From the NCBI GenBank assembly GCA_905178155.1, contig CAJINV010000005.1, positions 9,217,604 through 9,243,444 on the forward strand: a stretch of 25,841 nucleotides of DNA, read 5' to 3'. This DNA is from Amoebophrya sp. A120. Taxonomy: Eukaryota > Protista > Dinoflagellata. Position 1 is the first letter of the stretch. Each line of letters starts with the position of its first letter. Positions 1,794-24,937 of this stretch are shown piece by piece. Under the pieces are notes generated by a model. The model was not told the origin of the DNA, did no database searches, and saw nothing but the letters and a program-made list of their open reading frames with translations. A program made the position numbers and the translations under genes.

Positions 1794-4297
1794 TTGCTGG
1801 AAGAAGAGGAAAATCTTGACAGAGACGCTAGTTTGCCGCCCAATACAAGAGGTGCGCAACGAATAAATCACCTGAACAATAAATCCACCTCGAGTAGTTC
1901 CATCCACGCAGATTTAGAACCAACTTTGCTAGCGGAGACACTGCAACAGAAGCGGAGCCGAAGTGGTAGCAGTTCCAATCTCATCAACAAAAATGGGCAA
2001 AACAACAACAATTCATCCAGCAACAACTCTTCTTTCGGAGGACCGCCTGCGAGAAACAAGCTGAGCCTGACGAACACCAGCGAGCATTTTTCTTGCAATT
2101 CGAATTTTGAAAACAACTACAACTCGTCCAGCGAGGAAATATTTAAAGTGGAGGAAAAGAATATACTGGGAAATTCTTCGTCCAGCACTGCGCATGAACA
2201 AGACAGTTCTTCCTTCGCGTTGAATCCGTTTCCAACAGGAACGTCGGCGGACGGGTTGGGCTTGTGTTTTCAAAAGTACAACGGGACGAGCGGTTCATCG
2301 TCTTCATCCGTGGGGGTTCATTTTAACGCGGCCGGGAATCCTGTTGATTTCACCAACAAGACTCGTGGCGCCAGTACTGCTTCCTCCAGCTCTAGTTCTG
2401 CGACAGCCACGTCGAAATACCTGCTTGATCTACCGTTCACGTTGAAAGAGAGGCGGGTGGAGCAAGCGCCGGCACTATCCAAGAAAAAAACTGTGTTAGT
2501 GTGGGTCTTTTGGGAAAACAGCATCACAAGTTTGTCTGCCATGACAGGAAAAACTTGTCATGCGCAGATACGACGGGAAAACACGGAGGAAACGAGCCTA
2601 CCATGCATGTGGAGCATGATGACACGCGTAACTGTTTTGCTTTTTCTGCATCACAGACTTACACTTACACAGTGTTTTTCTTTGATAGGCACCGGTGGTG
2701 GGCGGAAGTAGGCGCAGCTCCTCGACCTCGCAGAGGGTGAGTTTCTATGGATTGCAAAAATGTCTGGGTCTGGAAGATTGCAACTTGTCATGCGAAATCC
2801 GAATCATGCAAAAGTCTGTGTTGCATGAGTGCCAAAAGCTGTCCACTTTCGACCAAGTTGGGAGGGAGTTTCTCATGCAGGATAGGCATGAAAGAGACCT
2901 CGCAGACTCTGTCGTGCTAGGTCCCGCATTCCAGACCTGAAGGGTCAGGGAAAACGTGCATGACAAGTTCACACTCTTCCAGACCCAGACATTTTTGCAT
3001 TTGATAGTTTGAGCGGCTCTGCAACTTCGAACGTGATGGCTTATTCGAAACAGCAGACTGTTCTCCCGCCGGCGGAATCTATACAACTAGGGACGACATC
3101 ATCTTCAAACAGGCCGACTACAACGCGTCCGGGAGTTATAATTCCCGGTGTGAACACAAGCGCGGCACACGTGAAAACTAGCACGGACTACGCGCAGCTG
3201 TCTCCGGACAAAAAACAGCGGGAGAGAAAGAACTCGTGGATATAACCTGCTCAGGTGTTACAATCTCAAACGCCACGAGAGAAATGGAAATTTGTGATGC
3301 AAAAAGTGCATGGTCTAGTCTGCTGTCACGGGATTGCGCATGACAAGTTACGGAGCTCCAAACCGCATGAGGGTCTGGCGAAATTTGTATTGCGAAAAGC
3401 GCAAAGCTCTGCAGGTTCCTTGTTATGCTCTCTATGCAATACAAATCCCACAGCCACGTGCTATTAGAGCATTTGAGACTGTAACATCTGAGCAAGCCAT
3501 AGTGGAGCGCGGTGAGTTCTAGCTCCTCGAGTTCCGCGACGAGTGCTACCTTCGTTGCACCAAGTGGAACCACCGCCGCCGGGGGGCGTGTTGCTGACCG
3601 TTCCCCGCCAAAACAGCGGGATTTTGGCGGAACAATTGGAGCTGCTTCCGCTGCTGGTACGAACGCCTCAGCGTCGTCACAGACACGAAAACCACTATAC
3701 AACGAAGCGCCGTATAAGCCGCCGCCGAGGACAACTATAACAGGAACGGCGCTCAATTGTATGGTCCCCTCAGCTGCTGGACAAGGACAAGGTCAAACTC
3801 CAACTACCAACCCCCTCCCCATCAGCCGCTCGTTGTTCGCCGGGAGCAAGCATACGATCCCGCTGACCACCGGGAAGCGGATTTTCATCACGCCGCCAAC
3901 AGGGCCCGGGGCTTTGTCCTCGTCGAGCAATAATATCAGTAGGAATCCACCACTGAATAGTGGTTCATCTCTTCTGAACAACCCGAGTTTGTTGAACACG
4001 AGTAGTGTTGCACCATCATCAAATCATGCGGCGAATCATTCCGCGAACAACTACACCCGATCTACATTCATCCACCTGTCGAGAACAGACTCGGAAGCCG
4101 CTGTGCCACAAGGGAAGATTATTTCCGCGAGCGAACGAGAAGAGTTGCAGCACTTGCAGCAATTGATCAAGGAGAGGGACGTGTTGGTCGCGGAATTGCG
4201 GAAAAAAGTGCTGGAACCGGAGGAAATTCGGAAGTTGAGTGTGTTGTTGGAGGAATTGCGCGGCTTGCGGGAAAGCAGCGCGAATGGGAGGAAGTGA
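1794..4297 (+). CDS. Gene 1, 5'-partial: Ser/Asn/Thr-rich low-complexity protein with a C-terminal coiled coil, function unknown; about 584 aa visible
   Basis: Exons ~1794-2475, 2693-2745, 3012-3240 and 3507-4297 join in frame (..APAPVVGG..RVS[F/L]SGSA..NSWSAVSS..) after removing three introners plus 5 nt each. It starts immediately after an introner end, so upstream exons are probably outside the window. The 3' end could extend via a GT-AG intron. Confidence 0.75.
2476..2687. mobile_element. Introner family B (212 bp)
   Basis: TIR TATCCAAGAAAAAAACTGTGT / ACACAGTGTTTTTCTTTGATA; DR GGCAC/GGCAC; frame restored. Confidence 0.92.
2746..3006. mobile_element. Introner family A1 (261 bp)
   Basis: 31-bp TIR with core TGCAAAAATGTCTGGGTCTGGAAG; DR GTTTC/GTTTG; close copy of 11237-11497. 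Confidence 0.92.
3241..3501. mobile_element. Introner family C (261 bp)
   Basis: TIR core TGCTCAGGTGTTACAATCTCAAA; DR GTGGA/GTGGA; related to 18780-19041. Confidence 0.92.
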
Positions 4298-6554
4298 GGA
4301 CTGGCGTTTTTACTTGTGGTCTGACGTTGAGAGTAAGAAGTTGCAAGAATTTGATGATGTGCTCTATCTTAATCTACTTTCCTGCAAGTCGAAGTTGTGT
4401 GTTGTACAGAAGTCGAAAAGAAGCAGTGAACGAGCACGCGGAGAAGATCTTACCAAAGTTATGTTAGTGCAGCAGCGCATGTTGAAGTCTTTTCTTATTT
4501 GTCTGGAGTTACGGTTGAGTAAGGAAAGAAGCTCTGAACAATATGATCCATGAAATGAAAGCAGATGGCTTGTGAATCCCGAAAGAGGAGGTCGGAAACT
4601 TTTTGCCGAGAATTGTAGGTGTTCGCTCCCCAGCAACAGCATGCTTTTTAGTTGCGGGCATCTGTTTGATCATAGCAACCAACAGCAACAGTGGGCGCCA
4701 CCATTCTAGCGCAAACGCTAGCCCATTGCGCAGGTCCCTGCGCCTGGGAGATACAGGGGCGGGGGCTTTCGTGTGTCATGCAGGAGCTCCGCCCAAGACA
4801 GAGGGAGCGCCGCCACCCTCGAACTTTGTGGCGTTTTGCGGGCCGGCTGGTCTCTCTGTGTTTTCTGGTTTGCCTGATATGGGCAGCGCGGCGCCAGCGG
4901 CTACGTTGTCCTATTGCGGACCGATCAGCGCGCGCCATTTCTGGCCCGCCGCCCCGCGTTACGGCGGGCAGCCGGCGCGCCCGCGCGAGCCAGCTGCCTA
5001 GCGGCCTTTATTTTTTCGTGGCCGTGCATTAGCAAAAACAAAAAAACAGCACGCCGCCACCCACCACAACCAACCACGGCAAACAAGGACGGCGCCGCCG
5101 CGCGCGCCATGCATTTTTTTGCGGCCGCGGATATGGTGGCGCGCCGGGAAGCCGCCCAGGCAGGGCGGTGGGCCCTCGACAGCCCTGCGCGCCCCGCGCA
5201 TGGCGCCGCTTGCCGCGCAGGTAGCAGGCCGCGCGCCATCCTCCGGGGGAGGCCGGGGCACGCATCTTCGCCGGGCGCTTGTCGGGCAGGGCATCGGAGA
5301 GAGCTTCGCGGGCTCGGGCTGCCTCGGCCGGGGCGGGCGCGTTGTTTGGTTGTGGCGCCGCCCGCGGCAGCCCTTCCGCTTCGCTGCCGTGCTTATGATG
5401 CTGCCCGGGCCCTGCTTAGTCAGTCTGCCGGGGCCGGGCGGGGCCGGCGCCGGTTCTGGCCCGGCAGCAAGCTGCGGCCCGGGCGGCCCCTTGGCCGCGT
5501 GGCTTTGGCGCCAGCCTGCCGTCGTCCCGGAACTACGTTCCCCGCGCGGGGCACTGTGCCCCGGGGGACCGACCACGTCCGCGCAGCAGGAGAGAAGTGG
5601 CGACCACGCCCAAGACCCGGACCGGGGCGCTATCAGTCTACCCCCGCGCAGACGGGGGGGGAGGCGGTGCGCCAGGCCGCGCCCCCTCGCTCGCTCGTCA
5701 GCCTGACGCCGTGGGCGCGGGCGCCCGCCCTTTTCTGTCGGGCCTACTGTCGCGCGCGGAATGAAAGGAAAGCAGGGCCGGGGGCGCGCGGGAACGAACC
5801 CACCGGGGAGGCGCCCCTTTTTAATTTTTGTCAGGCCGCTGCTTCGCGGGGGGGCCTAGCCTTTCGCCGGTGCTTGTGCGGCGCCAGCCTGGACGGGGGC
5901 CTCCGCGCATTGCCGTTGTTTTCGCCCAGTGCTAGGACCGGGCGCGCTTCTTGGCGCAGCTCCGTCGTGCACAGCGAAGGCCCCCGGCTGCCCTTGCTTT
6001 CTCACTCCAGGTCGCAGGGCAATGCCGGTCGTATCTTTCTTGTGCTAGCTCGGTTCGACGCGTGGCCGAGTCTCTATCGCCGCTAGCTTCAGAGTAACAA
6101 AACCACTCAGCTTTATCTTGCTTGTCCGCCAGTTCTTGTTCTTCACACACTTTGTATCCAAGATCCACTCCGCTCATGCCGACGGCGAAGCGGAAGAACA
6201 ACAGTTGAGGCAGTTCTTTGGATCTCAACCATAACCTTTTTCTGTTGTAGTCCTGCCCGGCCTGACAGATCATTGGCGCGTGCGTGTATTCGATGGCATG
6301 TAGTACAAGGAGCACAGTAGAATTCATGTTCATCTATTTTGAATTCAGAAAAGAACAGTAGGAATAGCTGCAAATCAACATAATCAAACTGCTTGACGTA
6401 CTATGGCAATTGATTTCTTCGACGCTATGGTATAGCTAAGGCACTTCACACACGTACTGGACGACAGCGTTTTCTTTACCTAAAAACTTACACCTGCTCC
6501 TTTTGCGAAACTTTCCTTCCACATTCCCCCTTCCCACATGTACCTGTTTTTAAG

Positions 6555-9500
6555 ATGCCACCTTCGAAGAAGCAAAACGTGAATTCTGGCGAGGCCAAGA
6601 AGCCCAACGCCAAGGCCAAACCGAAGGCAAAACCGAAGGCGAAGCCCAAAGCAAAACCGAAAGCAAAACCCAAGGCAAAGCCCAAAGCGGAACCAAAGGC
6701 GAAGCCGCAAGTGGAGTTGGGAGCCAAACCCGAGGCAAAACCGAAAGCAGAGCCGAAGGCAAGAGGGCGGCCGAAAGGCAAGGGCGCTGCGAAGCCGAAG
6801 GTAGCACCGGTGAAGAAGCAGGAGGGGGCAAAGAAACACCAGCAGGAAACGACTTCTCCTAAAATCGGTAAGGAAGTAGTTGTAGAGCAGGCGGCGGGAG
6901 GGCCAGCGGCTTCCTCTTCTTCTTCTTGTTCTGCTTCTGCGGCCGCATCCGCATCGGCAAAACCCGCGAAGGAAGAGAAATTTGTGCAAGGAACTAGCAC
7001 GACTCTCAGCACGACCAGCCCAATCGTTAACCTTGCTCCGGGGGCGAAACTAGCGGAGAAAAATAAAGTTCATTTCAATACAACCAGCTCCAGCTCCAGT
7101 CCGCCTGCTCACGTAGTTGTACCTCCTGTAGCAGGGAACAACAAAGAAGCTGAGGGCAGCACCAGTACGAAAGTTATTTCTAGCACTATAATTACTGACG
7201 CGCAGGGCAGACTGAAGAGACTTGAGATTTTTTTTGATCCAGTGGCAAAGAAGCAGAGGGTTGTGCAGCACTTTATTGAAGACACTCCTCCTGCAGAAGA
7301 AGTTGCTCCGGAGAAGGTGGCGTCGTCGAAGAAGGCAGGTGCTTTGGAGACTACCTCGAAAAGTGGTAGTGCCGCCGTTGCCTCTGTGCCAGTGCCAGAG
7401 GAGAAGAAATTTGACAACACGAAAACAAGTTCCGGTCCTGTACCTCCTGCACTTGCGCCACTGAGTACTTATTCTAGAAAGGAGATCACGAGGACTGCTG
7501 TTGACACTAGTACCTCCAGCACCGTCGCAGCTGGTATTGCTCCGTCGAAGAAAAAGAAGACAGGTGAAGAAGAGACTACTAGTACCTCAAACAGCGTTCC
7601 TCTTGTAGCTGTGCAAAATAAACTGAAAAAGCAGAAACTTGATACAACAGAGTTGTTGTCCACCTGTTCTACCACTGGTCATCTCGCAGGAGCAGTCGGA
7701 GGTGCAGCTTCTGCGCAAAAGGACAAGCAAATCGACACGTTGGTAGAAAAGAGTTGTTCCGGTGTTAATACCGCAGGTTCTACTTTGTCTGGAGCGAAGA
7801 ATAAACCTTCTGCGACTTCGATCTTATCTCAGAGTAAGAACGTGGACGTCAAGCAGGAGAAGATCGAGAGCAAAACTGGTGGCTCCACCGAACCTGTCCC
7901 TGCTGTTGCCTCACCAAAGGAGGAGCGCGTTGATATAAAAATTACCACGACTGCTGCTGAAGATGAAGACGTGCCAGCAGCTGCGGTGGTGAAAGTTGAC
8001 GTTGCCACTACAACTTCCAGCAAAGACGCGCCTGCTGCTCTGCCGGTGGAACAAAAGAAAGTTGCCGTTGCCAGCACTCCTTCCAGCGAAGACGCGTCTG
8101 CTGCTGCGCTGCCGAAGCCAGACGAGAAAGTTGCCGTTGCCAGCACTCCTTCCAGCGGAGACGCACGCGAAGGGCTGCCGAGGCCAGACGATAAAGTTGA
8201 CGTTGCCAGCACTCCTTCTAGCGGAGAGGCACGCGAAGGGCTGCCGAAGCAAGACGAGAGCGCCGAGATTGTCAGCACTCCTTCTGGTGAAGAAGCGCCA
8301 GCAACTGGGTCGGAGAAAAAAGACGAGAAAGTTGACATTTCCACTAATTCTGACGAAGACGCGCCTGCAGCTACTTCGCCGGTGGAAAAAGACGTGAAAG
8401 TTGACATTGGCACCACTTCTAGCGAAGACCCGCCTGCTGCGCTGCCGAATCAAGAGGAGAAGGAGGTTGACGGCGCCAATATTTCTTCTACAGGAGACGC
8501 GCCAGCAGCTACGTTGGTGTTGACACAAGACGAAAAAGTTGACATTGCCACTACTTCTAGCGAAGACGCACCAATAGCAGCTCTTTCGGTGAAACAAAGC
8601 GAGAAACAAGTTGAGGTCTTGCCCACTTCTAGCGAAGACGCGCCAGCAGCTCTTTCGGTGAAACACGAGGGGCAGAAAGTTGACGTTGCTACTACTTCTA
8701 GCGAAGACGTGCCAGCGGCAGCTCTTTCGGTGAAGCACGGCGATAAAGTTGACGCTCTTCCGACTTCGAGTGACCACGCATCAGCAGCTCCAGCGGAAAA
8801 AGAAGAGAAGCGTGAGGACGATTCCACTCCTTCTAGCGAAGAACACGCAGCACCTGCTGCAGCTCTGCTGGTGAAGCAAGAGAAAGTCGACTCCACCCCC
8901 TGCCCGACGGCTAGCGAAGACGCACCAGCAAGAGCTGCTGTAGTACCGGAGAACAAACACGACGAAAGAATTGACATTACCTCCGGGACCACTTCTGGGG
9001 AAGACGGATCTACTGCTGTTCTGCCGAATCAAGTAGACGGGAAAGTTGACATAATTACTAAAAATTATTCGAGCGGGGAACACGAAGAACACACGCCAGC
9101 TGCTTCAGCGGTCGTGGAGGAATATAAGGAAGTTGACATTACCACGACGGTGGATAGTGGAGACGCGCCAGTACTACCAGCTCCATCAGAAAATAAAGAG
9201 CTCGAAGATCTTCATAAAGCTGACAGCGCGAATATTCTTGCCAGCGAACAAGAGAACGGTCCATCTGCATTTGCTCCAGGTCTTCGGGAGAAACAAAACG
9301 ACGAGGGCACTGACGTCATTATCGCCACTTCATCTTCCAGTGGGGCTGGTGACGCAGTAGACGCAGTTGTTCCTTTGCCAAAAGAAGACGGCAAAGAAAT
9401 TGACAAACCTTCGACGACGTCGCCGCCCCTGACCCCAGTCTCTACAACTCCATCCACCAGTTCCCCCGCAGCAGTGGCGGGAACAAAAGAAAATAAAGAT

Positions 9501-12500
9501 AATCCAGAACAAGAAACACAAGCAGGCGTGAAAAACAGCTTTTCAGCTATACCGGACATCGACAAGAACAATCTTATCAGCGACAAGCAACTGACGGCGA
9601 TCCGGCTGAGACACAAAAAGATGGCGGAGGCCATGGAGAAGCTGTTGAAGTTGCAGGAAGACTACAATAAAAAGAACCGGCTCCGGGTTCTCATCCTCGG
9701 CGGCTCGACCTTCGTTGGCAGAACGTTGGTCCGGAACATCTTGAAAGAAGTCCATCATTATCAACTGCAACTATGTCTGGGTCCTCTGGAAACTTGTGCT
9801 GCGGGGAAGGGAATACTTAGTGAAAGCACTGTAATGCGCTGCCGAGCATGACAAGTTTTGCTGTGGTTCTGAGTTGCGTACTCTGCATGAGAAACTGCGC
9901 TTTTGTATGACAGGCAAGAGGAGCTCTTCGCGGCCACGCAATACAGAGTTCAGAGTCATGCCCGACTAGCATGACAAATCTCGCAATCTCCCAGACCCAG
10001 ACATGCTTGCAGTGCATAATCATTTGGACTTGGCGATTCTGAATCGCGGCCGGAAGTATTGGGATGGCGACTGGCAGGGCGCATTTCCGCCGACGAAGGA
10101 GAACATTCATGAAACAATATCGTAAGGAAAAATCCCCCCTCCCCATATCGAAAAGGCATCCTTTTGAAAATTTGTGATGCTGATTTGCGGCCACAAATCA
10201 GGTCTGTCTTGCAAGAGAGCAAAGCCCGAGCTTCCTCCGCTTTACGCCGGCGATTTGTAATGCTGCTGCGCTAACAGGGCAGCCGTCTGCCTCTGCCATG
10301 CTGAGCGCCCACTTCCAGCCAGCCCCTTCCAGGCTTTGCATCTGCCTGCAGTCCTCTAGGGCAATGCAGAGCTGATTTGCGTACACAAATTCCGCAACAC
10401 AGATTGCCATTTTGATATGGGGAGCGGGAATTCTTTCTTTTGATAAACAAACACGCTGAGGATCTTCCCCGGGGATCGGCGGAAGATGAAAGGGAAGCCT
10501 TTTCAGGACATCATCGCCAAACTTACGATCGAAGATAAAACCCGCTTTTATTACGATGAGGTGCTGGACTACATCGCAAAAACTCATGGGGCGGGAGATG
10601 AAAATGGAAATGACAATGGAAATCAAAATCCCTCGTCATCTATCAAATGCAAAAGTGTCTGGGTCTGGAAACTTGTGATGCTAAAAGTGAATGGTAGACG
10701 GACTGCAATACGCGGTATGCATGACAAATTTTCCGGCTCCCATGTCTTACGTATTCCGCATAGCAAACTGCGTTTTTGCATGACAGGTAAGAGGGCCTTT
10801 TCGTGCCTATGCAATACAGATTCTCAAGTCATGCCAGACAAGCATGACAAACTTGCATTCTTCCAGACCCAGACATTTTTACAGTTGATATCATCCAGTT
10901 GTGCGGATCATAATGGGAAAAAGACCACCAACATGATCTCGTCAACCAATCCATCTGATCCATCTGATCATGGGAAAATGACTAGTGCAGCTGCTTCTAG
11001 TTCATCATCATCATCATCAGCAGGTGCTCCTGCTCCTCCGCAGGACAGCATCAACAAGAAAAAGCCGTTTTGGGACGTGATTGTGGATTTCTGTTGTTTC
11101 CAAGAGTCAGAATTTCAAGACGTCATGAAGGGGTTGTACTTGGCCGGGAAATTGGTTTGTGACGAGAGGTGGAGCCTAGAAAAAGAGAAAAGGGAAAACC
11201 ACAGAGTTCACCCCCAGGTGGTGTGGGATCACGCGATATGGATTGCAAAAGTGTCTGGGTCTGGAAGATTGCAACTTGTCATGCTAAATCCGATTCGTGC
11301 AGAAATCTGTGTTGCATGAGTGCCAAAACCTTTCCACTTTCGACCAAGTTGGGAGGGAGTTTCTCATGCAGGATAGGCATGAAAGAGACCTCAGAGACTC
11401 TGTCATGCTAGGTCCCGCATTCCAGAGCTCAAAGGTCATGACAAACCTGCATGACAAGTTCACACTCTTCCAGACCTAGACATTTTTGCATTTCATACGC
11501 GAAACAAGCCAACGTCGTTTCCGACAACTTTCCCCCGGAAGCCTTCGTCAGTTATGCAAGAAAAAAACTATGTAAGTGTAAATCTGTGATGCAAAAAATG
11601 CAAAACAGTTACACTTGTCATGCTGAGTGTGCGTAATAGGCCACTTTCCTACGTATTTGCACGTACTAGCTGCGCATGACAGGTTTTTCCTGTAATGCAA
11701 AGCGAATTTGTGATGCTGCTCATTCTACAAGGTTACACTTACACAGTTTTTTTCCTGGATATCAGTCATTACATCTTCATTTCCACGGATTCCGTGTATG
11801 AGGTGTGCGGTCTCGAAAAGTGCGCAAAGGAAAGAATCGCGATCGAACGGCTCTTATGAACTGCAAAAGTATCGTAGTGCTAGTAGTAATGGCAATACAA
11901 ATTAGCTCAGCATGACAAATGGAATTTGTCATGCTGTTTTGATGCCTTGGGATAAAGATTTGTAAATGCATGACTGCGATTAGGATTACTACGAGTGCGA
12001 TGCTTTTGCAGGTCATAGCTTTTACCCAAGAAGGACGTGGAGAATTATTACAAGTGGAAATTTTCGGATGCGAAGCTACTGCATAGTATCCTGAGTAAAA
12101 ACGTACCCACACCAGAGTTGTAATGCAGATTTGCAAAGACAGGAAGACTTGTAATGCGCATCCCCATGAGAGCCATTCCCAGTCGTGTTTTGGAATTTGT
12201 GATGCTGTGAACAGGATGAGCAGATGAATCTGTGACGCGGCTGCACTTGCTAACCTGCACTACACTGCATAGCGCAACTTGTCATGCGTGACTCACAAAA
12301 CTCCTAGGTTTGTGTTGCAAAATCCTCATCCTGACTCTGGTGTGGGTACGTTTTTACTCAGGATAAGGACTACGACTACTTCAACATCTGGGGCGGGTAA
12401 GAGCGACAGCAAGCAGAGCCTTGGCGGAAAAGCAGAAGTGGAGCACGGTAGTTCAAGTTCAACAACATCAGTTATGGATTGTAAAAATGTCTGAATCTGG

Positions 12501-15500: not shown

Positions 15501-17451
15501 TTGAGCATTGGAAATTTGTGATGCTGACATATGCAAGACCGAGAATGGTTCCATTGGAAAGGCGGGTTGCAAGACAAATGCTGCCAAGTTCTGGGGTGGG
15601 GGCATTTTTCACTGTAATAGTTTCGGGAGATCGTTTTGAACGATGGTTGTGAAAGAAGTTTTGCCTGTTTCCAGGGACGAAGAGAAGCAGAGGCACCCGC
15701 CGAGCTCACGGGTGTTGACACAACAGACCAAGTGCACCAGTTGGAAAAACAAATTTTGCCTGCTGGTTCTTCTGAAAGCAGTCCGGGCTCTTCTCACTCC
15801 TCTGCTGCGGAACAAAATGTTGTGTTGCAGAAACGACAGAAAACCACCACAGATGTTGAGGCGAACAAGAACCAGGAGCGGAAAACTCACGACGAGAAAC
15901 CGGGAGGTAGTAGTGGTACAACTATTAGAGCTCCTCCTGAAGTTGTAGCAGAGAGCAGCAGCACGCATCATCCTCTCGACGAGAAGATGAAAGAAGGTGA
16001 AAATAAAGACGTCGCCGGGCCGCGGGGCGGGTTTACTCCGGATAACAGAGTTAGGTTCCAACCAGCGCATGATCCTTGCCTCGAGAAGATAGAGAAAATA
16101 AAAGCAGCAAGAAAGAAAGAAGCCGCGCAGCGAGAAATCGAGGAGAAGAGAGTCATATTGAACAAAAACTACCTCCTATGGAGAGAAAAAAGTTTGTCAC
16201 AGTCACTAACTTGCAGGTTTTGCATTACAAATTTTCTCAGCATCACAAACTTTCCTTGTATTGCAGAAACACTAGGGAAATGCCTAATGAAGTATGGCTG
16301 TGATGCATTTTTACGCATGACAAACAATTTTGTATTGCAAGAATGCGCATGAGTGATCGTGACGAATTTTTTTTCTTTGATGCCTCCCTTCTGTTTCCCG
16401 CCGGACGAAGCCGCTGGATTTCGAGAAACTTTCTCAGTACTTGCACGAAGTGTCCTTTTCCGGAAAAGTGCACCAGTTGCCGATCAGTTCCGACGTCGAC
16501 GAGAAGACTTCCAGCTTGGAACACGTTTACCGAAAATGCCACGAGTTCTATCCTGAGGAAAAACGTGGTGTCGCCCACAGGTGGGAAATCTGCTAGAAAA
16601 ATTAGCCAGCTTTGCTTGTTTCGCATGACAAACTTGGGCTCGCAATGTAGTCGCATGACAAAAAATTTGGGCTCGCAGCATCACAGATCTCGGGCGCAGT
16701 GCTGATCCCTTCGGGTATCGCAAATCTCAAATCACCACTAGAAAATGCTTCTCATGGGTCTTTGCATAAGCATGCAGATGTGCATTACAACTCTGGGGAG
16801 GTGGGGCTTTTTTCCTCCGGATAAGTTTTACAAGAAAGTGGTCGACCGGGCGATTGTCGAAGTTGAGGATTACAGAAATGGAAAAATATGCGTTGCAAAA
16901 GTACTATCATACTCGTAGTTTTTGATTGCAATCGTGCATGACAAACCTTCATCCTAAGCTAAATCAGCATGACAAAAAAATTCCGTTTTGTCATGCTGAG
17001 AATTAGTTTGTGATGCAATTTCTCCTACGTACGATAGTACTTTTGCAAAAATGTTGCATAAAAAAGACGCGACAGTAAGAACAGTGACTTCATCGGCGAT
17101 TTCTACGAAAGCTTCGTAGATGCGCGGAAAGGCCTGCCCTTCCGTGTGCGGGAGGAGTTCGAAAGGTTAGCGTTTGAGGATGGAGGAGGGACAAAGGATG
17201 ATAATGATGATCATCTTGCGAGAGAAAAACGACCGGGGGACGAGAAGGAAAAACCGGGGGACGAAAAGGAAAAACCGGCGGGGAAGAAGGATGTGGTGAT
17301 GGCAGATGCTCTTGCGGGTGGATGTGGAAAGGAGGATTTTGAGAAAACCAAAGCAAAGGTGTTGAAGCTGTATAAGATGATGGAAGAGCTTGAGAATGAG
17401 TCAAGCAGCGATTCTAACTCAAGTCACGACAGCGAATCATCTTCGGGATGA
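6555..17451 (+). CDS. Gene 2: ~2065-aa protein with a PKAK-repeat basic N-terminus, an acidic repeat region and a C-terminal extended/atypical SDR (NAD-dependent epimerase/dehydratase, CSP41-like) domain; 20 exons, 19 introners
   Basis: Span 10897 nt minus 4699 nt (19 elements plus 5 nt each) = 6198 nt, open to TGA at 17449-17451. SDR motifs appear in the correct order across exons: VLILGGSTFVG, ILNRG, GDR, WDVIVDF, HYIFISTDSVY, YGHKKLRVEE (YxxxK), LRVPDILGPYDDTNR, VFSEDMA, ALNFGCEE, YLPSV..PLD. Confidence 0.88.
6601..6810 (+). repeat. Coding 12-nt repeat encoding (KPKA)n, histone H1-tail-like
   Basis: Translation AKAKPKAKPKAKPKAKPKAKPKAKPKAEPKAKP, with third-position codon variation between units. 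Confidence 0.9.
7929..9200 (+). repeat. About 18 degenerate coding repeats of ~22-29 aa, consensus KVD[V/I]ATTSSEDAPAAAL
   Basis: Visible in the translation and in the DNA (AAAGTTGAC..ACTTCTAGCGAAGACGCGCC). Confidence 0.9.
9759..10018. mobile_element. Introner family A2 (260 bp)
   Basis: DR ATCAT/ATCAT; removal joins EVHH to LDLAILNRG; inverted relative to 21427-21689. Confidence 0.93.
10118..10445. mobile_element. Introner family D (328 bp)
   Basis: TIR TATCGTAAGGAAAAATCCCCCCTCCCCATATC, imperfect; DR AACAA/AACAA. Confidence 0.92.
10641..10890. mobile_element. Introner family A2 (250 bp)
   Basis: DR TCATC/TCATC; family A TIR; inverted relative to 12803-13054. Confidence 0.92.
11237..11497. 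mobile_element. Introner family A1 (261 bp)
   Basis: DR CGCGA/CGCGA; family A TIR. Confidence 0.93.
11553..11761. mobile_element. Introner family B (209 bp)
   Basis: DR TCAGT/TCAGT; removal joins AFVS to HYIFISTDSVY. Confidence 0.93.
11855..12017. mobile_element. Introner family E (163 bp)
   Basis: TIR TATGAACTGCAAAAGTATCG; DR GCTCT/GCTTT; related to 14297-14446. Confidence 0.9.
12087..12365. mobile_element. Introner family F (279 bp)
   Basis: Perfect 32-bp TIR TATCCTGAGTAAAAACGTACCCACACCAGAGT; flanks CATAG/AGGAC give no 5-nt DR; frame restored by removing element +5 (or +2) nt. Confidence 0.9.
12473..12737. mobile_element. Introner family A1 (265 bp)
   Basis: DR TCAGT/TCAGT; family A TIR. 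Confidence 0.92.
12803..13054. mobile_element. Introner family A2, inverted (252 bp)
   Basis: DR ATGGG/ATGGG; perfect TIR TATCAAATGTAAAAATGTCTGGGTCTGG. Confidence 0.93.
13093..13349. mobile_element. Introner family A1-like (257 bp)
   Basis: DR CCCTC/CCCTC; family A TIR. Confidence 0.92.
13603..13865. mobile_element. Introner family A1, inverted (263 bp)
   Basis: DR GAAAA/GAAAA; reverse complement aligns by eye to 12473-12737. Confidence 0.92.
13902..14211. mobile_element. Degenerate introner with A-like TIR (310 bp)
   Basis: TATGCA...TGCATA ends; DR decayed (GACGA/ACCAA); removal +5 nt brings the YGHKK motif into frame. Confidence 0.8.
14297..14446. mobile_element. Introner family E (150 bp)
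   Basis: TIR core TGCAAAAGTATCGTACT; DR CTCCC/CTTTC. Confidence 0.88.
14601..14827. mobile_element. Introner family B' (227 bp)
   Basis: TIR TATCGC..GAAAAAA.TG.TTCACTGTAA; DR TCGTG/TCGCG; inverted relative to 24156-24364. Confidence 0.9.
14883..15044. mobile_element. Introner with E-like TIR (162 bp)
   Basis: TATGCATTGCAAAAGG / CCTTTTGCAGAGCATA; DR GCGGG/GCCGT. Confidence 0.86.
15307..15619. mobile_element. Introner with F-like TIR (313 bp)
   Basis: TIR TATTACA[A/G]TGAAAAATGCCCCCACCCC; DR GTTTC/GTTTC. Confidence 0.92.
16177..16382. mobile_element. Introner (206 bp) ending in ATG
   Basis: TIR core AGAAAAAAGTTTGTCAC..TCACT; DR CCTCC/CCTCC; removal gives NYLPSVSRR. Confidence 0.9.
16549..16823. 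mobile_element. Introner family F (275 bp)
   Basis: TATCC.GAGGAAAAA ends; DR AGTTC/AGTTT; internally similar to 18428-18721; has a small internal tandem duplication. Confidence 0.9.
16887..17060. mobile_element. Introner family E, inverted (174 bp)
   Basis: TIR core TTGCAAAAGTACTATC; DR AAAAA/AAAAA. Confidence 0.9.
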
Positions 17452-18184: not shown

Positions 18185-21100
18185 ATGCTCTATTTCCGCC
18201 GATCAGGAGCAACGACCATCTTCGCGGCCCTCGCCGCAACCTCAACGACCCTGGTCGTCCAGGCCCGGCGGAAGCCCGGACTCGGCGCGTCGCACCAGAA
18301 GAAGTTGCAGACCTTCGTTACCATCGACGGTAACGCGGATCAAGAATACCACGATGATGACGCGCACCTCTACCTTGCAGACGAACACGCGGACGAACAT
18401 CACGAGGAGCATGATGACCACACGTCTTATTCTGAGTAAAAACGTCCCCACGACCACAGACATAGTCCAGATGGGAACTTGGCAACACAAATCAAAACAA
18501 GGTTTGGCTGTTGCGCATGACAAGTTTGGGCTCGCAGTGTAATCCTTTACAGCTGGTGCAGCCCGAAGAGAAATCGACACTGTCTTCCTCATTCTCGCAT
18601 GACAAACTCGTCCCCGTCGATGAAATTAGAAAATGCCTGTCATGTGGCTGCGCATGAGAAACTTTTTAGGCATGCAGATTTGCATGACAACTCTGGGGCA
18701 AAGACGTTTTTGCACAGGATACGTCTTTCATCGAAGTGAAGCGGCCGAAGAAGTTTAAGCAGAAACTGGATTCCGAGCTTATGACCCGCACAGACGTGGT
18801 TACAATCTCAGCTGTTACAATAGAATCTGGAAATCTGTGATGCAAGAACTGCATGATCTAGCCTACTCCCATAGGATTGCGCATGACAAGTTTCGGAGTC
18901 CCAAATCCGCCTGAAATCCGGCAAAATTTGTATTACGAAAAGCTCAATTCGCTCTGCGTTCCTCATGCTCTTCATGCAATACAAATTCCAGAACCAGATT
19001 CTATTGTAACGTTTGAGATTGTAACTTTTGAGCAGGCCATAGAGCTGAACGACGAGGCGTCCGCCTTCCTCGACGTGAACAATCTGAAGGATGACGAGGG
19101 GACAAAAACTACGGGGAAGGGTGGCGCGGAGATCACCGGCATGGAACTGGATATCCAAGAAAAAAACTGTGTAAGTGTAAATTTGTGTTGCAGAACATGC
19201 AACAGAGCTACACCTGTCATGCCAGACAGCCATAAAGTCCTCTTTTCATTTGTGTTTTCCCTTACAAGCCACGCATGACAGGTTTTCTCTGCCATGTAGA
19301 GCAAATTTGTGATGCTGTTCCTCAAAGAAAGTTACACTTACACACTTTTTTTCTTGGATACTGGAGAGAAAGAAGAAGAAGGAAACCGTCAAAACGGAGA
19401 ATGTCCAGATCACATCGCAGAAAAACTATCCACTGCAAATATGTCTGGATTTGTGATGCGAGATGCGAAGGACAGCGAGATCTGTAATGCTTGAATACGA
19501 TTATGGTCTTTTTTTCGTCGTTCTCGACGGGAATGAATCGATCCGCAAGAAGTTGGGGAAACACAACTTCTCATGCTGTGATGCAAGTATCACCAACACA
19601 AGTTGTTTCCAGACACCCAGATGACATAGTTGCATTTGATAAAAACGTAAAAACGTCGACTGCCGCGCCCGTCACGAAAGCTGCTACGACCACCAAGAAA
19701 ACTACGACCACGACTACCACAACGGACATCAACAATGGACTGGTAAGATGATAGAGTTTTTTTGTCATGCGCAGAACGCATTGGACATGCATTTCTGTCA
19801 TGCATGAATTGCAACGACAATTAATGCGCGCTTCAATCAAAATTCAGGTCAACCCGCGGTTGCGCGAGAAGTACCACCCGGACCACATGACCGGGCACAA
19901 AGCCTCTTACGGGGTCTTCGCCATCATCGGGGGCGTCATCCTCGGTTTCGGGCTTTTTGTCACGGTTTTCTGCATATGCATTGCAAAAATGTCTGGGTCT
20001 GGAAGGATGGAAGTTGTGACGCGTGCGGTGGATCACACAAAAATCGCTCTTGCGTGATAGCCAAAAGTTGCCCTTTTCTGACCACCATGAGAGGGAGTTT
20101 CTCATGCAGGGCAGGCATGGTAGAGACCTCGCAGAATCTGTCATGCTAGGTCCTGCATTCCAGACGAGACCTCTTGGGCATAGAAACCCAGCATGGTAAC
20201 TTTGTATTCTTCCAGACCCAGACATTTTTGCAATGCATACTGCATCTACTACGGACCCAAGTCGAAATCGAAGGAGAGCGACATTTCACGGACGCTGAAC
20301 AAGGACTACGACAAGGCCGCGGGAAAGTCACCCGAGTCGAAGCGCGGCAAGAAGGGGGAGTCAAGTGTGGGTGGAGAGGGGACTTCGTACGGGAGCTATG
20401 AGAGTGCACAAGTAACCCCCCTCACCGCTCCCCTCAGTTGTATTGTGCAGAACACCAAATACGTGTTTAGCTGACGAATTCTGGCGACCCCCCGGGCGCC
20501 GTCATTAGGCTGCTTGGGGGGGTTTGGGGGGGCAAGATTCAGCGTAGCCGGCTAGGGTTCGGCTAGGGTTCGGCCAGGGTTCGGCCAGGGTTTTCGCCCA
20601 GGGTTTTCGCCCAGGGTTTTCGCCCAGGGTTTTCGCCCAGGGTGCGCCCAGGGTTCGCCCAGGGTTCGCCCGGGGTTCGCCCGGGGTTCGCCCAGGGTTC
20701 GCCCAGGGTTCGCCCAGGGTTCGCCCAGGGTTCGCCCAGGGTTCGCCCAGGGTTCGCCCAGGGTATTCTGTGTGTTGTTTTATGTTCGTTCCTGTAAAAT
20801 AAATGTTGGGGACAGAGGGGGGCGGTGCACTCTCATAGGAGCTCGGAGTACTACAGCAGTTCGCAGTACACCAGTGGATCCTCATATGCAAGAAAAAACC
20901 ACTCCCGCGTGTGAGTCTGTACCTGTAGTGAGTAAGTGTGTAGACGTATGCTGGCCAGGAGCCACGAAGCCCTCTTTTCATAAGGTGGCGTCTTAAGTGC
21001 TAGCAGTGCATGACAGCCTTGCTCTGTCATGCGAACAAGATTTGATGTCCTGCTTTGCTGTCACTACTTCAAGAAAGCTGAAGCTACTTCTCACAGCACT

Positions 21101-22352
21101 AAAGCAGCTTTTTTCCTGGATGCCTCTCGCGTGATGTCCGGCGGCAGTTCCATGCAATCCGGCGGCAGTTTATCCCATGAAGAAGTGTGTCTGTGTGAAC
21201 GGAGTTTATCATGCAATAACATGCAAAAAGGCTGGCAGCGGCAGCGCTGAAATTTGTATTGCGTAGCATGCTTTAGCTTTCACTTTCTAGGGAAAATCTG
21301 GAACAATGCCTGGGTGCAAGCCGTGAAATAAATCGTTTACGCATAAAACATTTTTGTGGTTCTTGATAAACTTCCTTCCCGCCGAGCAGCGCAACTGCTG
21401 CTTCTTCTGCAAGCCGTGCCACCAAGTATCAACTGCAAACATGTCTGGGTCTGGAAGATTGCAAGATTTGTCATGCTAGTCTGGCATGACTCTGCACTCT
21501 GTATTGCGTGGCCATGAACAGCCTCTCGAGCCTGTCATGCAAGAACAACGTAGTTTCTCATGCGGAATGCGCAGCACAGAAGCACGAAAAAAACTTATTA
21601 TGCCTAGCTGCGCGTTACAGTTCCCTTATTGTTATTGTTCACTGACTTGCATCACAAGTTTCCAGACCCGGACATATTTGCATTTGATACCAAGAAGTCC
21701 AACGCAATGACGAAGCCGAAGTCGGTTACTTCCTCCGGAGCGAAGCTATGCATGGCAAGAGTTTGATCGCACTTGTGTGAATTGCATCACAGATTTTTGA
21801 TTTTCCAGAATCAACAAAAAATTGGAGTTTGTGATGCTGCTCTAGAAATAAAATAAAAGATAGATCTGTCATGCGATTTGCCACGCGGGGTTGTGCGATA
21901 CTTTTCCATAGCATAACAATCGGGCTACTCGATGACGTCCTCCAAGTACGAGGAAGACGGCTACGGGGAAGAGGAAGAGGACGACTACGAAGACGAAACT
22001 GCGTATGGGAGTGTCAGGATCGAAATCGTCAAAGGTGAAATTGTTTGCCATGCATAAAATGCAACGCAGAAATTGCCTCTATTGCAGAGGACGCAAGGGA
22101 GGCAGATTGTAGTGCTGGTAGGGGTCGAGAAATGGGCTGCTGATTAGCAACACAGAGGGGAGTCCCTTTGCCCTGAACAGCATGACAAACTGGCTTCCTG
22201 TACGGACAAAATTTGTCATGCACCGACTAGAAGCTGTGGATCCAATTGGTATCGATTTTATGCATTGCAAGTTACTTTAACTCCGTCGATTTCAATCCTG
22301 GTACTCCGATACCGCGTTCCATTCCGGGGGTGGGAAAAAATCTAGAATGTAA
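18185..22352 (+). CDS. Gene 3: ~381-aa predicted type I membrane protein (signal peptide, His/Asp-rich patch, Thr-rich stalk, one TM helix, Ser/Tyr-rich and acidic cytoplasmic tail); 13 exons
   Basis: Span 4168 nt minus 11 introners (+5 nt each) and one 105-nt GT-AG intron (3022 nt in total) = 1146 nt, open to TAA at 22350-22352. N-terminus MLYFRRSGATTIFAALAATSTTLVVQA; TM YGVFAIIGGVILGFGLFVTVFCIYY. Confidence 0.82.
18428..18721. mobile_element. Introner family F (294 bp)
   Basis: DR CGTCT/CGTCT; TIR TAT.CTG.G.AAAAACGTC. Confidence 0.92.
18780..19041. mobile_element. Introner family C (262 bp)
   Basis: DR GAGCT/GAGCT; similar to 3241-3501. Confidence 0.92.
19152..19360. mobile_element. Introner family B (209 bp), inverted relative to 2476-2687
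   Basis: DR CTGGA/CTGGA; near-perfect 29-bp TIR. Confidence 0.93.
19427..19641. mobile_element. Introner with A-like TIR (215 bp)
   Basis: DR AAAAC/AAAAC; TATCCACTGCAAATATGTC / GACATAGTTGCATTTGATA. Confidence 0.9.
19743..19847 (+). other. Canonical GT-AG intron (105 nt) in gene 3
   Basis: CTG|GTAAGA...ATTCAG|GTC; removes an in-frame stop and joins DINNGL to VNPRLREK. Confidence 0.8.
19975..20239. mobile_element. Introner family A1 (265 bp)
   Basis: Perfect 31-bp TIR; DR CTGCA/CTGCA. Confidence 0.94.
20397..20837. mobile_element. Introner (441 bp) containing a minisatellite
   Basis: Perfect 13-bp TIR TATGAGAGTGCAC; DR GGAGC/GGAGC; removal joins TSYGS to SEYYSSSQY. Confidence 0.88.
20550..20764. 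repeat. 11/13-bp minisatellite GCCCAGGGTT(TT)C with a telomere-like AGGGTT core
   Basis: About 19 tandem units directly visible. Confidence 0.95.
20885..21122. mobile_element. Introner with B-like TIR (238 bp) ending in ATG
   Basis: TATGCAAGAAAAAA / TTTTTTCCTGGATG; DR CCTCA/CCTCT. Confidence 0.82.
21171..21368. mobile_element. Degenerate introner (198 bp)
   Basis: TATC...GATA ends with weak TIR; DR CAGTT/AACTT; frame restored (GGS to SFPPSS). Confidence 0.72.
21427..21689. mobile_element. Introner family A2, inverted (263 bp)
   Basis: DR CCAAG/CCAAG; family A TIR. Confidence 0.93.
21747..21915. mobile_element. Introner with E-like TIR (169 bp)
   Basis: TATGCATGGCAAGAGT..ATCGCAC / GTGCGATACTTTTCCATAGCATA; DR lost (GAAGC/ACAAT); frame restored with +5 nt. 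Confidence 0.78.
22004..22311. mobile_element. Introner, singleton family (308 bp)
   Basis: TIR TAT.GGAGT..CAGGAT.GAAATCG; DR CTGCG/CCGCG. Confidence 0.88.
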
Positions 22353-22399
22353 GACTCGTGACGTGGATTCAAATTTGGACGATGTTTCTCGCTAGGGTA

Positions 22400-23600: not shown

Positions 23601-23644
23601 CATCACCGCCAGAACTACTAGTACGTCTCTGTGAGGACGAGAAA

Positions 23645-24937
23645 ATGGAGCAACGCGAGCGAATCACCTCGAGCAGCTCTACTTCCCGGCTCTACGCCCG
23701 GAATCATCACAGCGCGAATTCCTACCAGCTGGAGCAGGAGCTGCAGGATGTCAACGAGATGGATTTTTTGCCGTCTGTGAACGCCTCCGACGGGACGACG
23801 AGTCACTTCAACTATCACACATATCCTTTGCAAAGTATGTAAGTTGCAGTTTGTTGCATGACAGATTAATTATCCTATTTCAAACTGCATGACAAACCCC
23901 ACTTTACCTTTTGAAAAAAGTTGTGTTGCAACTCATACTACTGTGATTACGCCTTTGCAATGCATAATCCCGCAACATCCCAGCCGACTCCCTCCACCTC
24001 TTCAACGTCCTCGAAAATAATCGAGAAGATGAACTCGTCAACATCGCCCAGCAGTAGAGCCGCGTCGAAAAAGAACTGCTGCTTCCTTCTCTTCCTCGCA
24101 GCAGCGGTGTTCTCGATTTTTTTCTTCATCCACGAATTGCACCTCCGATTCATCCTATCGCAAGAGAAAACTGTTTCACTGTGCACTTGTGATGCAGAAA
24201 AAGCATCACTGAAGTGTTTGTCTTGCTGCACATGCAAGACAGTGGACTTTTAGCTGTGTTTTCCCTTCAGAATCTCGCATGGCAAATTTTCTTTGTGATG
24301 TGGAACAAACTTGTGATGCAAAACTTGCAAAATCCTTACAGTAAAACACTTTTTTCGTACGATACATCCACAACTGGATCTTGCCGAACCTCCTGCACAA
24401 CAGTAACCTTTCATCTACATCGCACTATGAAACGATTGATGGAGAACAGCATGACAAACTGAGGAAAATCAGCGACGAACTTCTGATGCAGGGCGCGGGG
24501 CAACACTTCAACTTCTCCACCGGAATTATAAACGAGGTTTTTGACGAGGAAAACGCTTTTTCGCTGCTGTCGACGGATACCGTCATGAAAACCGGGTTCA
24601 TGCAGGGTACGCTACACAAATTTCAGGATTGTAGTCAGACCATGAGCGAATGTCGTGGAGGTTTGTCATGCGAAAAGTGCATGAGGTGAAAGATTTGTAA
24701 TGCGAAGAGTGCATCAGCAACACATGTTTGACAGACCGAAATCTGTGTTGCATAAACGTGAATGAAGTAGCGGAGGAGAAGGTGCACGTGCGGAGCGACG
24801 ATGACGAGACCGACGATGCCGACGGTGGAGATGAGGAGCATGACGGTGGTGAAGAAGGAGATGAACATGAAGATGCCGATGCCGATGTAGCCCCACCCGC
24901 ACCTGCTAACGACACGCCGGGAAGCAAACGTAGTTGA
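23645..24937 (+). CDS. Gene 4: predicted type II membrane protein (one N-proximal TM helix, acidic stretch); 3' structure uncertain
   Basis: Exons 23645-23821, 23972-24155 and 24370-24606 join in frame after removing two introners; TM CCFLLFLAAAVFSIFFFI. A probable GT-AG intron from 24607 leads to an Asp/Glu-rich exon. The gene may continue past 24937. Confidence 0.62.
23822..23966. mobile_element. Introner with E-like TIR (145 bp)
   Basis: TATCCTTTGCAAAG / CTTTGCAATGCATA; DR decayed (ACACA/ATCCC); removal of 150 nt is in frame. Confidence 0.8.
24156..24364. mobile_element. Introner family B' (209 bp), inverted relative to 14601-14827
   Basis: DR CATCC/CATCC; reverse complement aligns end to end with 14601-14827. 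Confidence 0.93.
24607..24770 (+). other. Probable GT-AG intron in gene 4 (acceptor at 24770 or 24734)
   Basis: CAGG|GTACGC donor; both AG options are in frame with the downstream acidic exon. Confidence 0.5.

What the first reader, a model, noticed from the sequence alone, without database searches (positions are those of the whole stretch)
2476..24364. 35 TAT...ATA inverted-repeat elements act as precisely removed non-GT-AG introns
Seen: every complete element starts TAT, ends ATA/ATG, has TIRs, lies inside a reading frame, and removing it plus 5 nt restores the frame in 35 of 35 cases; in gene 2 this rebuilds ordered SDR motifs across 19 insertions. DRs such as AAAAA, AACAA, ATCAT, CCCTC, CCTCC, CATCC and AAAAC contain no G, so no register within the DR gives GT/GC-AG. 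Known (from memory): IR/DR introners and abundant non-canonical introns were reported in Amoebophrya genomes (Farhat et al. 2021), with the removal mechanism unresolved, so the class itself is not new. Inference: a dedicated excision system recognises the paired ends rather than standard splice sites. The strict TAT/ATA plus 5-nt rule seen here is a concrete recognition code.
Basis: partly seen in the sequence, partly recalled or inferred. Interest (0 to 1): 0.93.

Follow-up and report, generated by a model that had tools for sequence, protein, structure and literature searches.

The report
Transposon introns cut by end ruler
Dozens of small inverted-repeat transposons inside genes of a marine parasite (an already described oddity) are missing from its transcript assemblies to the base, and the cuts likely fall at fixed distances from the element ends, one base before and four after, which would give a testable rule for a still unknown way of splicing.

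Summary
The window is Amoebophrya sp. A120 (annotated protein identical to my spliced gene 2). In four probable-RNA contig sets (one sample), 14 of 14 tested elements are skipped by exactly length+5, while DNA-like contigs keep them. What I did not find in print: junctions with imperfect repeats share only one register, exon|N-TAT...ATA-NNNN|exon. Repeats matching at 1 or 2 of 5 bases still splice exactly, related elements splice in both orientations, nearby polypyrimidine-CAG acceptors are skipped, and a 9-mer recurs inside at about 31-nt spacing. So the 5 nt behaves as a 1+4 ruler from the ends, not as repeat recognition. The catalyst is untested; I favour a modified spliceosome (about 50%) over a dedicated nuclease-ligase (about 35%). 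Corrections: perfect repeats occur in only 22 of 36 elements, and frame logic alone cannot tell +5 from +2 or +8. The scan noted similar hairpin-bounded introns on other protist DNA before. Known class, sharper rule.

The parts
1500..1792 (+).
   Evidence: length+5 removal joins two open frames; 75-82% similar to elements in L loci; not tested on RNA
2476..2687 (+). Element 1 (gene 1), repeat 5/5
2746..3006 (+). Element 2 (gene 1), repeat 4/5
3241..3501 (+). Element 3 (gene 1), repeat 5/5
6555..17451 (+). Gene 2: 2065-aa ORF after removal of 19 elements; low-complexity N-terminal half, likely atypical SDR/epimerase C-terminal half
   Evidence: residues 1023-2065 identical to annotated A120 protein P0001; ESM Atlas 0.95
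9759..10018 (+). Element 4, repeat 5/5
10118..10445 (+). Element 5, repeat 5/5
   Evidence: as element 4
10641..10890 (+). Element 6, repeat 5/5
   Evidence: as element 4
11237..11497 (+). Element 7, repeat 5/5
   Evidence: arithmetic
11553..11761 (+). Element 8, repeat 5/5
   Evidence: arithmetic
11855..12017 (+). Element 9, repeat 4/5; junction register 4-7
   Evidence: joint 11853-12022, skip 168
12087..12365 (+). Element 10, repeat 1/5; register 3-4
   Evidence: joint 12084-12369, skip 284
12473..12737 (+). Element 11, repeat 5/5
   Evidence: skip 270
12803..13054 (+). Element 12, repeat 5/5
   Evidence: skip 257
13093..13349 (+). Element 13, repeat 5/5
   Evidence: skip 262
13603..13865 (+). 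Element 14, repeat 5/5; opposite orientation to relatives 11 and 13
   Evidence: skip 268; orientation
13902..14211 (+). Element 15, repeat 2/5; register 4-5
   Evidence: joint 13900-14216, skip 315
14297..14446 (+). Element 16, repeat 3/5; register 4-5
   Evidence: joint 14295-14451, skip 155
14601..14827 (+). Element 17, repeat 4/5; register 4-5
   Evidence: joint 14599-14832, skip 232
14883..15044 (+). Element 18, repeat 3/5; register 3-4; begins GT at register 4 yet skips a polypyrimidine-CAG 10 nt upstream of the used end
   Evidence: joint 14880-15048, skip 167
15307..15619 (+). Element 19, repeat 5/5
   Evidence: skip 318
16177..16382 (+). Element 20, ends ATG, repeat 5/5
   Evidence: skip 211
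16549..16823 (+). Element 21, repeat 4/5; register 0-4; opposite orientation to relative 10
   Evidence: joint 16543-16824, skip 280
16887..17060 (+). Element 22, repeat 5/5; opposite orientation to relatives 9 and 16
   Evidence: skip 179
18185..22352 (+). Gene 3: 381-aa ORF after removal of 11 elements and one GT-AG intron; mucin-like protein with a hydrophobic segment
   Evidence: first 369 aa identical to annotated A120 protein P0002; contig arithmetic
18428..18721 (+). Element 23, repeat 5/5
18780..19041 (+). Element 24, repeat 5/5
19152..19360 (+). Element 25, repeat 5/5
19427..19641 (+). Element 26, repeat 5/5
19743..19847 (+). Canonical GT-AG intron (105 nt) in the same gene; holds two copies of the elements' internal 9-mer
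19975..20239 (+). Element 27, repeat 5/5
20397..20837 (+). Element 28, repeat 5/5; contains an 11-bp tandem array
20885..21122 (+). Element 29, ends ATG, repeat 4/5
21171..21368 (+). Element 30, repeat 3/5, weak arms; register 3-5 from P0002
21427..21689 (+). Element 31, repeat 5/5
21747..21915 (+). Element 32, repeat 1/5; register 2-4 from P0002
22004..22311 (+). Element 33, repeat 4/5; retained in the deposited model P0002, removed according to contig arithmetic
23645..24937 (+). Gene 4: 250-aa ORF after removal of 3 elements
23822..23966 (+). Element 34, repeat 2/5
   Evidence: RNA joint not displayed
24156..24364 (+). Element 35, repeat 5/5
   Evidence: RNA joint not displayed
24584..24754 (+).
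   Evidence: RNA joint not displayed

Best explanation
These are the introner elements of Amoebophrya sp. A120, short TAT...ATA inverted-repeat inserts that are absent from probable-RNA contigs by exactly their length plus 5 bases and are likely cut from the pre-mRNA at fixed distances from their ends (1 base before TAT, 4 bases after ATA), most likely by a modified U2-type spliceosome. Steps: (1) inferred: a DDE transposase or integrase inserts non-autonomous copies in either orientation and makes a 5-bp target duplication; the internal 9-mer spaced about 31 nt apart (three helical turns) is likely its DNA binding site. (2) Shown: the transcript assemblies lack element+5 nt. (3) Inferred from 7 informative junctions: one common register, N|TAT in front and ATA-NNNN behind. 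Because 1+4 equals the duplication length, a fresh insertion leaves the protein unchanged, which would let such elements spread through exons. (4) Inferred: the fold-back of the arms brings the ends together and replaces U1/AG-based site choice; N-U-A-U is read as a donor without G+1, and the 3' site is measured from the AUA. (5) Untested: spliceosomal two-step chemistry with a branch at one of the two As, 5 or 7 nt before the 3' site. My odds: identity and exact removal 0.95, fixed 1+4 register 0.85, spliceosomal catalysis about 0.5.
For: Exact length+5 skips at 14 of 14 junctions in 4 of 4 contig sets. Only register 4 is common to all 14; four junctions exclude 3 or less, three exclude 5 or more. 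A hand calculation gives at most about 1.4% for any common register if cuts were spread evenly over positions 0-5. P0001 matches with 0 mismatches only at register 4; P0002 allows 3-5 and 2-4 at two further sites. DNA-like contigs span elements 18, 22, 34 and 36 unspliced. Both orientations are spliced. Terminal triplets deviate at 2 of 180 positions against 22 of 150 in the duplications, in the complete sets of genes 2 and 3 (p=1.4e-6). In L loci, an exact 5-nt duplication flanks 192 of 364 candidates against 0-7 for lengths 3, 4, 6, 7 and 8. For a spliceosome: U+2, A+3, U+4 resemble the Giardia spliceosomal donor [G|C]TATGT, which comes with a fused branch/3' site (PMC10711314). All 18 predominant non-canonical splice classes of A25 and A120 have T at +2 (PMC7789003 Table S4). 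A120 keeps 83 of 89 spliceosome proteins and U2, U4, U5, U6 but no detectable U1, whereas the canonical-intron strain Kv has U1 (PMC12005148). Fritillaria is a precedent (review PMC11282704).
Against: No single junction fixes the register by itself; each is ambiguous by at least 1 nt, so a common register is an inference. The four RNA sets are one sample, are only guessed to be RNA, are contigs rather than reads, and may be the data behind the annotation, so may not be independent. Against a spliceosome: G at +1 is not enriched (76 of 213, p=0.21), AG at the end is not enriched (20 of 213, like neighbouring positions), the 5' and 3' arm profiles are symmetric, and polypyrimidine-CAG sites 10 nt upstream are skipped at elements 9, 15 and 18. 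Against pairing as the signal: no G-U over A-C excess in 213 elements (149 vs 169; the window gave 48 vs 27); terminal pairing is predicted weak (<0.2) in 7 of 36 elements, including the spliced 14, 20 and 22. No transposase was found.
Confidence: 0.5

Rival explanations
1. Same elements and same 1+4 ruler, but the cutting and joining are done by a dedicated non-spliceosomal endonuclease and ligase (or a domesticated transposase-derived binder) that docks on the end of the TAT/ATA stem, as proposed for Euglena nonconventional introns.
For: Orientation-blind splicing; symmetric arm profiles and no G+1 or AG preference; skipped canonical acceptors; arms predicted to pair in most elements (mean probability 0.66-0.76 for the first three pairs). 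Euglena uses an analogous offset code, N3CDG / CH'GN5-6 (PMC12501133), and its introns come out as circles without lariats (review).
Against: No candidate enzyme was sought or found. The register yields a donor-like U+2/A+3/U+4, and T at +2 is shared by A25 and A120 despite different element families. In strand-called L elements the first T was intact in 213 of 213 5' ends while its partner A changed in 4 of 213 3' ends (not significant; one window element starts CAT). Selection for pairing was not shown.
Confidence: 0.35
2. The gaps are reverse-transcriptase template-switching artefacts across hairpins flanked by direct repeats; the real transcripts keep the elements.
For: Hairpin plus direct repeat is the known recipe for false introns (passage in PMC13149111). 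Only cDNA-derived contigs were available; low-depth contigs (depth 2-4.6) retain element sequence.
Against: Five junctions have only 1 nt of microhomology yet are exact. The kept bases come from the left repeat (positions 1-4), not the right one that a switching enzyme would copy first. One contig lacks all 14 elements at once in each of X3, X5 and X6. Retention truncates the ORF at 24 of the 25 sites in genes 1, 2 and 4.
Confidence: 0.04
3. The elements are excised from DNA in some life stage (like ciliate internal eliminated sequences), and the contigs without them come from rearranged DNA or its transcripts.
For: TA-containing ends with short repeats resemble ciliate IES (recalled, no call). 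The RNA status of X3-X6 is a guess, and the joined form in other runs was not given.
Against: DNA-like contigs at single-copy depth (22-30) keep the elements. The gene 3 contig length fits loss of the canonical GT-AG intron as well as all 11 elements. A 1+4 asymmetric cut follows transcript direction in both element orientations (elements 10 and 21 opposite, both 4 or less; 9 and 16 at 4 or more), which symmetric DNA excision does not predict.
Confidence: 0.04
4. Cut sites float within the direct repeat (registers 3 to 5 vary from element to element), as the published description of variable splice positions implies.
For: Farhat's Fig. 3 legend says positions relative to the hairpin are variable or unknown; Gozashti's table lists mixed gt/gc/ga/at/NC sites within single A120 families. 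No junction here is individually unambiguous.
Against: All 14 RNA junctions and 2 further protein-level junctions are compatible with one value; the published spread is what aligners give when sliding within a perfect repeat.
Confidence: 0.07

Closest known systems
Introner elements (IEs) / non-canonical introns of Amoebophrya sp. A120 (Farhat et al. 2021, PMC7789003)
   Same: Same organism and elements: inverted repeats starting TAT, seven variable bases, then an A run; 3-5-nt direct repeats (5 bp in Fig. S19 legend); about 240 nt mean length; RNA-seq-supported removal; the deposited proteins P0001 and P0002 already lack them.
   Different: The text I read leaves the cut position variable or unknown and does not report a fixed 1+4 register, dispensable direct repeats, both orientations, or the 31-nt-phased internal 9-mer. 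[quoted passage not shown]
A120 introner family 38, Ginger-like TIR transposon (Gozashti et al. 2025, PMC12130899, Dataset sd07)
   Same: Listed with '5-bp TSD, TA/TA Termini'; TIRs; ORFs with homology to Copia/Gypsy; a plausible source of the transposase.
   Different: About 810 bp with ORFs, whereas the window's elements are 145-441 bp without ORFs; sequence kinship to family 38 was not tested; that table assigns mixed splice sites and TSDs of 2-6 nt to most A120 families.
Nonconventional introns of Euglena (PMC12501133; review PMC11282704)
   Same: MITE-like origin, complementary end motifs set back from the cut sites by fixed offsets, no GT-AG, coexisting with canonical introns.
   Different: Different motif and offsets (N3-CDG, CH'G-N5-6, purine at exon start, against N1-TAT, ATA-N4); tested genetically and released as circles in Euglena, untested here; unrelated lineage.
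Non-canonical transposon-derived introns of Fritillaria borealis (via review PMC11282704)
   Same: TIR/TSD introns with non-GT-AG ends removed by an adapted U2 spliceosome.
   Different: Preferred AG-AC/AG-AT ends with a TAC target; here the terminal bases +1 and -4..-1 are free.

Membership tests
Amoebophrya A120 introner elements (Farhat 2021) | Located in the A120 genome | tested here: met
   P0001 and P0002, named Amoebophrya sp. A120, are identical to the spliced genes over 1043 and 369 aa
Amoebophrya A120 introner elements (Farhat 2021) | Terminal inverted repeat starting TAT, seven variable nt, then A run | tested here: met
   TAT in 35 of 36; A at element positions 11-13 in 31, 29 and 32 of 36; definition
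Amoebophrya A120 introner elements (Farhat 2021) | Direct repeat of 3-5 nt at the exon/intron boundary | tested here: met
   5/5 in 22 of 36, at least 3/5 in 32 of 36
Amoebophrya A120 introner elements (Farhat 2021) | Removed from RNA without GT-AG ends | tested here: met
   14 of 14 joints; 0 of 36 GT-AG at register 4; RNA status of the runs is a guess
Amoebophrya A120 introner elements (Farhat 2021) | Repeated families | tested here: met
   Full-length pairs at 65-92% identity within the window, up to 96% in L loci
MITE (non-autonomous TIR DNA transposon) | TIRs, constant-length TSD, short, no transposase ORF, many copies | tested here: met
   element depth in DNA-like run thousands of times single-copy
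MITE (non-autonomous TIR DNA transposon) | Cognate autonomous element; empty-site polymorphism | not testable with these tools
   No genome held; no convincing long element among L loci; none in viral contigs
Ginger / integrase-type TIR transposon | Integrase-like transposase and Ginger termini | not tested
Canonical U2 spliceosomal intron | GT/GC-AG ends | tested here: not met
   0 of 36 at register 4; 8 of 213 in L loci, with neither G at +1 nor AG enriched
Canonical U2 spliceosomal intron | Lariat intermediate, U2/U6 dependence | not testable with these tools
   No raw reads of this strain (X9 gave 11 reads)
Euglenid nonconventional intron | N3CDG / CH'GN5-6|R signature | tested here: not met
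   Ends are N-TAT / ATA-N4, and the first exon base shows no purine bias (15 of 36 are A or G)
Euglenid nonconventional intron | Release as full-length circular RNA | not testable with these tools
   Needs small or circular RNA libraries

The most novel reading that the evidence does not exclude
Amoebophrya A120 has a second, non-spliceosomal mRNA splicing machine that is blind to orientation and to the bases at the cut, docks on the TAT/ATA ends and cuts 1 nt outside on one side and 4 nt on the other. The stagger equals the transposase's 5-bp duplication, so any such element becomes a traceless intron the moment it inserts; Euglena would have reached the same design independently with other offsets.
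Probability: 0.35. Interest if true: 0.9.

Novelty: already known. Interest (0 to 1): 0.5.

Why it matters
More than 60% of A120 introns are non-canonical and their removal is an open question (PMC7789003). A fixed register turns a blur of 'variable' splice sites into one rule. It tells where to place lariat and circle primers, names candidate branch adenosines, and predicts a matching TA at -6/-5 in strain A25, whose introns start TT. It also allows re-annotation (the deposited gene 3 model appears to keep element 33) and explains why exon insertions are tolerated: 1+4 cancels the 5-bp duplication. If catalysis proves non-spliceosomal it would be a new mRNA splicing system; if spliceosomal, a spliceosome working without G+1 and without AG.

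Tried and rejected
No whole genome is held, so no genome-wide census. In one search the DNA-like run swamped the joint table, so junctions of elements 23-36 were not displayed; elements 0-3 lay outside both laid stretches. A search for longer homologs with residues 985-1068 of gene 2 found none. Pfam on 13 exons and on P0001 gave nothing useful; PDB best E=0.74. The four non-self HMMER hits (P0003-P0006) are repeat-summed noise. Rfam found nothing in the window. No element ends in viral contigs. Long candidates (>600 bp) in L loci looked like mis-paired or nested elements; no transposase was identified. L-locus candidates with repeat match 0-2 did not obey the frame rule (6 of 18 at +5 against 5-9 at other offsets) and are probably false pairings. 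The G-U vs A-C test of RNA pairing was contradictory. The 5'/3' asymmetry of terminal variants (0 vs 4) is not significant. A paper search for Ginger, subterminal motifs and dinoflagellates returned nothing. I considered the internal 9-mer as an RNA splicing signal: a slight sense excess exists (410 vs 344, p=0.018), but spliced elements 17 and 21 have no sense-strand copy under the strict pattern.


Full report
Observation. Counts below use 36 elements (all but the one at 1500). The ends are T35/A36/T36 and A36/T36/A34,G2. The flanking 5-mers match exactly in 22 of 36, while no length from 3 to 9 other than 5 matches more than once. The strict pattern occurs 21 times against 0.04 in 100 shuffles. 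Removing length+5 opens four + strand ORFs. The frame test fixes the length only modulo 3.

Identity. An exon of gene 2 retrieved one protein, named Amoebophrya sp. A120 (P0001); an exon of gene 3 retrieved P0002 with the same name. My spliced gene 2 equals P0001 at all 1043 residues across all 19 insertions. Spliced gene 3 equals P0002 for 369 residues across 10 elements and a GT-AG intron; P0002 then reads into element 33. The deposited annotation therefore already treats nearly all of these as introns. The C-terminal half of gene 2 is likely an atypical SDR/epimerase (ordered motifs; Atlas 0.95; no Pfam hit).

RNA evidence. The run search listed 11 runs, none on record as an RNA holder. I laid 6 of the 11. 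X3-X6 (contigs, guessed RNA, one sample) on 11762-17200 show 14 joints for 14 elements, each skipping length+5, in all four runs. Contig arithmetic extends this: gaps of 284, 1213 and 219 nt between aligned pieces equal the model for elements 4-6, 7-19 and 20-22, and a 1259-nt contig from 18084 would end at 22364, overlapping the next contig by 30 nt, only if all 11 elements and the canonical intron of gene 3 are gone (sums only). The DNA-like run X1 spans elements 18, 22, 34 and 36 unspliced at depth 22-30. Low-depth contigs with element sequence exist in X3-X6.

Register. Call p the number of left-repeat bases kept in the exon. The seven junctions with imperfect repeats allow 4-7, 3-4, 4-5, 4-5, 4-5, 3-4 and 0-4; the other seven slide freely; the only common value is 4. 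P0001 has 0 mismatches at p=4 and 2-5 at other values; P0002 adds 3-5 and 2-4. The intron is thus likely N-TAT...ATA-NNNN. No junction proves this alone; my hand estimate for a chance common value is at most about 1.4%. Elements 10 and 15 match at 1 and 2 of 5 repeat bases and still splice exactly, so the repeat is a relic of insertion, not a signal. At p=4 none of 36 is GT-AG, and the +1 base and last four bases are near random.

Symmetry. Interior alignments place family members in opposite orientations, including spliced pairs 11/14, 13/14, 9/22, 16/22 and 10/21. A scan of the metagenome collection returned 154 stretches (152 loci held, contigs JACKZZ01..., estimated about 510 in all; relation to A120 not determined) with the same families at up to 96% identity. 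Of 364 candidates 220 could be given a coding strand and 213 of those had repeats of 3/5 or better. In these, G at +1 (76) and terminal AG (20) are not enriched, 8 are GT-AG, and the two arms have matching profiles. In 245 elements with adequate flanks, +5 gave an open 120-codon frame in 154 against 89-96 for out-of-frame offsets, and +2 and +8 did as well as +5. Terminal triplets are far better conserved than the duplications (2 of 180 vs 22 of 150). Folding predicts terminal pairing in most but not all elements, and the G-U test for selection on pairing was contradictory.

Internal motif. A 9-mer, YTGTNWTGC, occurs 135 times in 8725 element bases and 10 times in the other 17116. Adjacent same-strand copies are 31-33 nt apart in 31 of 72 cases in the window and 159 of 387 in L loci. 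Three helical turns suggest a DNA-binding protein such as the transposase (inference).

Mechanism. Recognition from the ends with a 1+4 ruler is well supported; the catalyst is not tested. For a modified spliceosome: N-U-A-U mirrors the Giardia donor [G|C]TATGT; T at +2 is common to all 18 listed splice classes in both strains (aligner bias is possible); the spliceosome is nearly complete but U1 undetected. For a dedicated nuclease-ligase: full symmetry, no G or AG preference, skipped CAG acceptors, and the Euglena parallel. I put these at about 0.5 and 0.35. Template switching and DNA excision are unlikely for the reasons given under the rivals.

Literature seen. PMC7789003: abstract, passages, sections 11, 12 and 16, and supplement text searches; figures not visible. 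PMC12130899: passages and rows 1-40 of 58 A120 rows of Dataset sd07; supplementary files 13 and 14 not searched. PMC12501133: passages and Discussion. PMC11282704: passages and section 6. PMC13149111, PMC12005148, PMC12787238, PMC10711314: passages only. Roy 2023 and Henriet 2019 were not read. That the fixed register, orientation independence and phased 9-mer are not in print rests on five searches and a word search of Farhat's text; unseen figures or subscription papers may contain them.

Verdict. A real feature of a published class in the very organism where it was described, so already known. The resolved register is a modest addition that makes the open question of how these introns are removed directly testable. 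Interest 0.5.

Noticed in passing
window 1500-1792: A 37th TAT..ATA element with no direct repeat at all (0/5); the flanks instead extend the inverted repeat outward with a 1-nt offset. Removing length+5 joins an open frame from 530 to gene 1.
   Followed up: partly
window 790-1333: A 21-bp tandem satellite (about 24 copies) lies inside the open frame upstream of element 0; whether it is translated is unknown.
   Followed up: no
window 20554-20764: Element 28 carries 18.5 copies of an 11-bp unit in its interior and is still absent from the annotated protein.
   Followed up: no
window 19743-19847: The only canonical GT-AG intron holds two copies of the elements' internal 9-mer 33 nt apart, so it may be an element remnant.
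   Followed up: no
window 22004-22311: The deposited protein P0002 reads into element 33 and stops; contig arithmetic suggests it is spliced, giving a different C-terminus.
   Followed up: partly
window 6555-9620: The gene 2 frame is open for 1022 codons upstream of the annotated start of P0001, with 12-bp and 66-69-bp repeats; RNA-like contigs cover parts of it at lower depth.
   Followed up: partly
window 4700-6090: A stretch of up to 72% GC between genes 1 and 2, unlike the rest of the window; possibly another repeat or element.
   Followed up: no
window 25454-25841: A 204-bp tandem repeat (1.9 copies) at the window end contains the same internal 9-mer without evident TAT/ATA ends.
   Followed up: no
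L001:2454-2779, L048:287-566, L069:5037-5299, L029:4548-4793: Of four strand-called elements with a damaged 5' TAT, three have G at +1, so the intron would start GT; too few to test.
   Followed up: partly
L022:631-1465, L045:3314-3945: Long candidates with perfect 5-nt repeats and family ends, possibly nested insertions; not opened.
   Followed up: no
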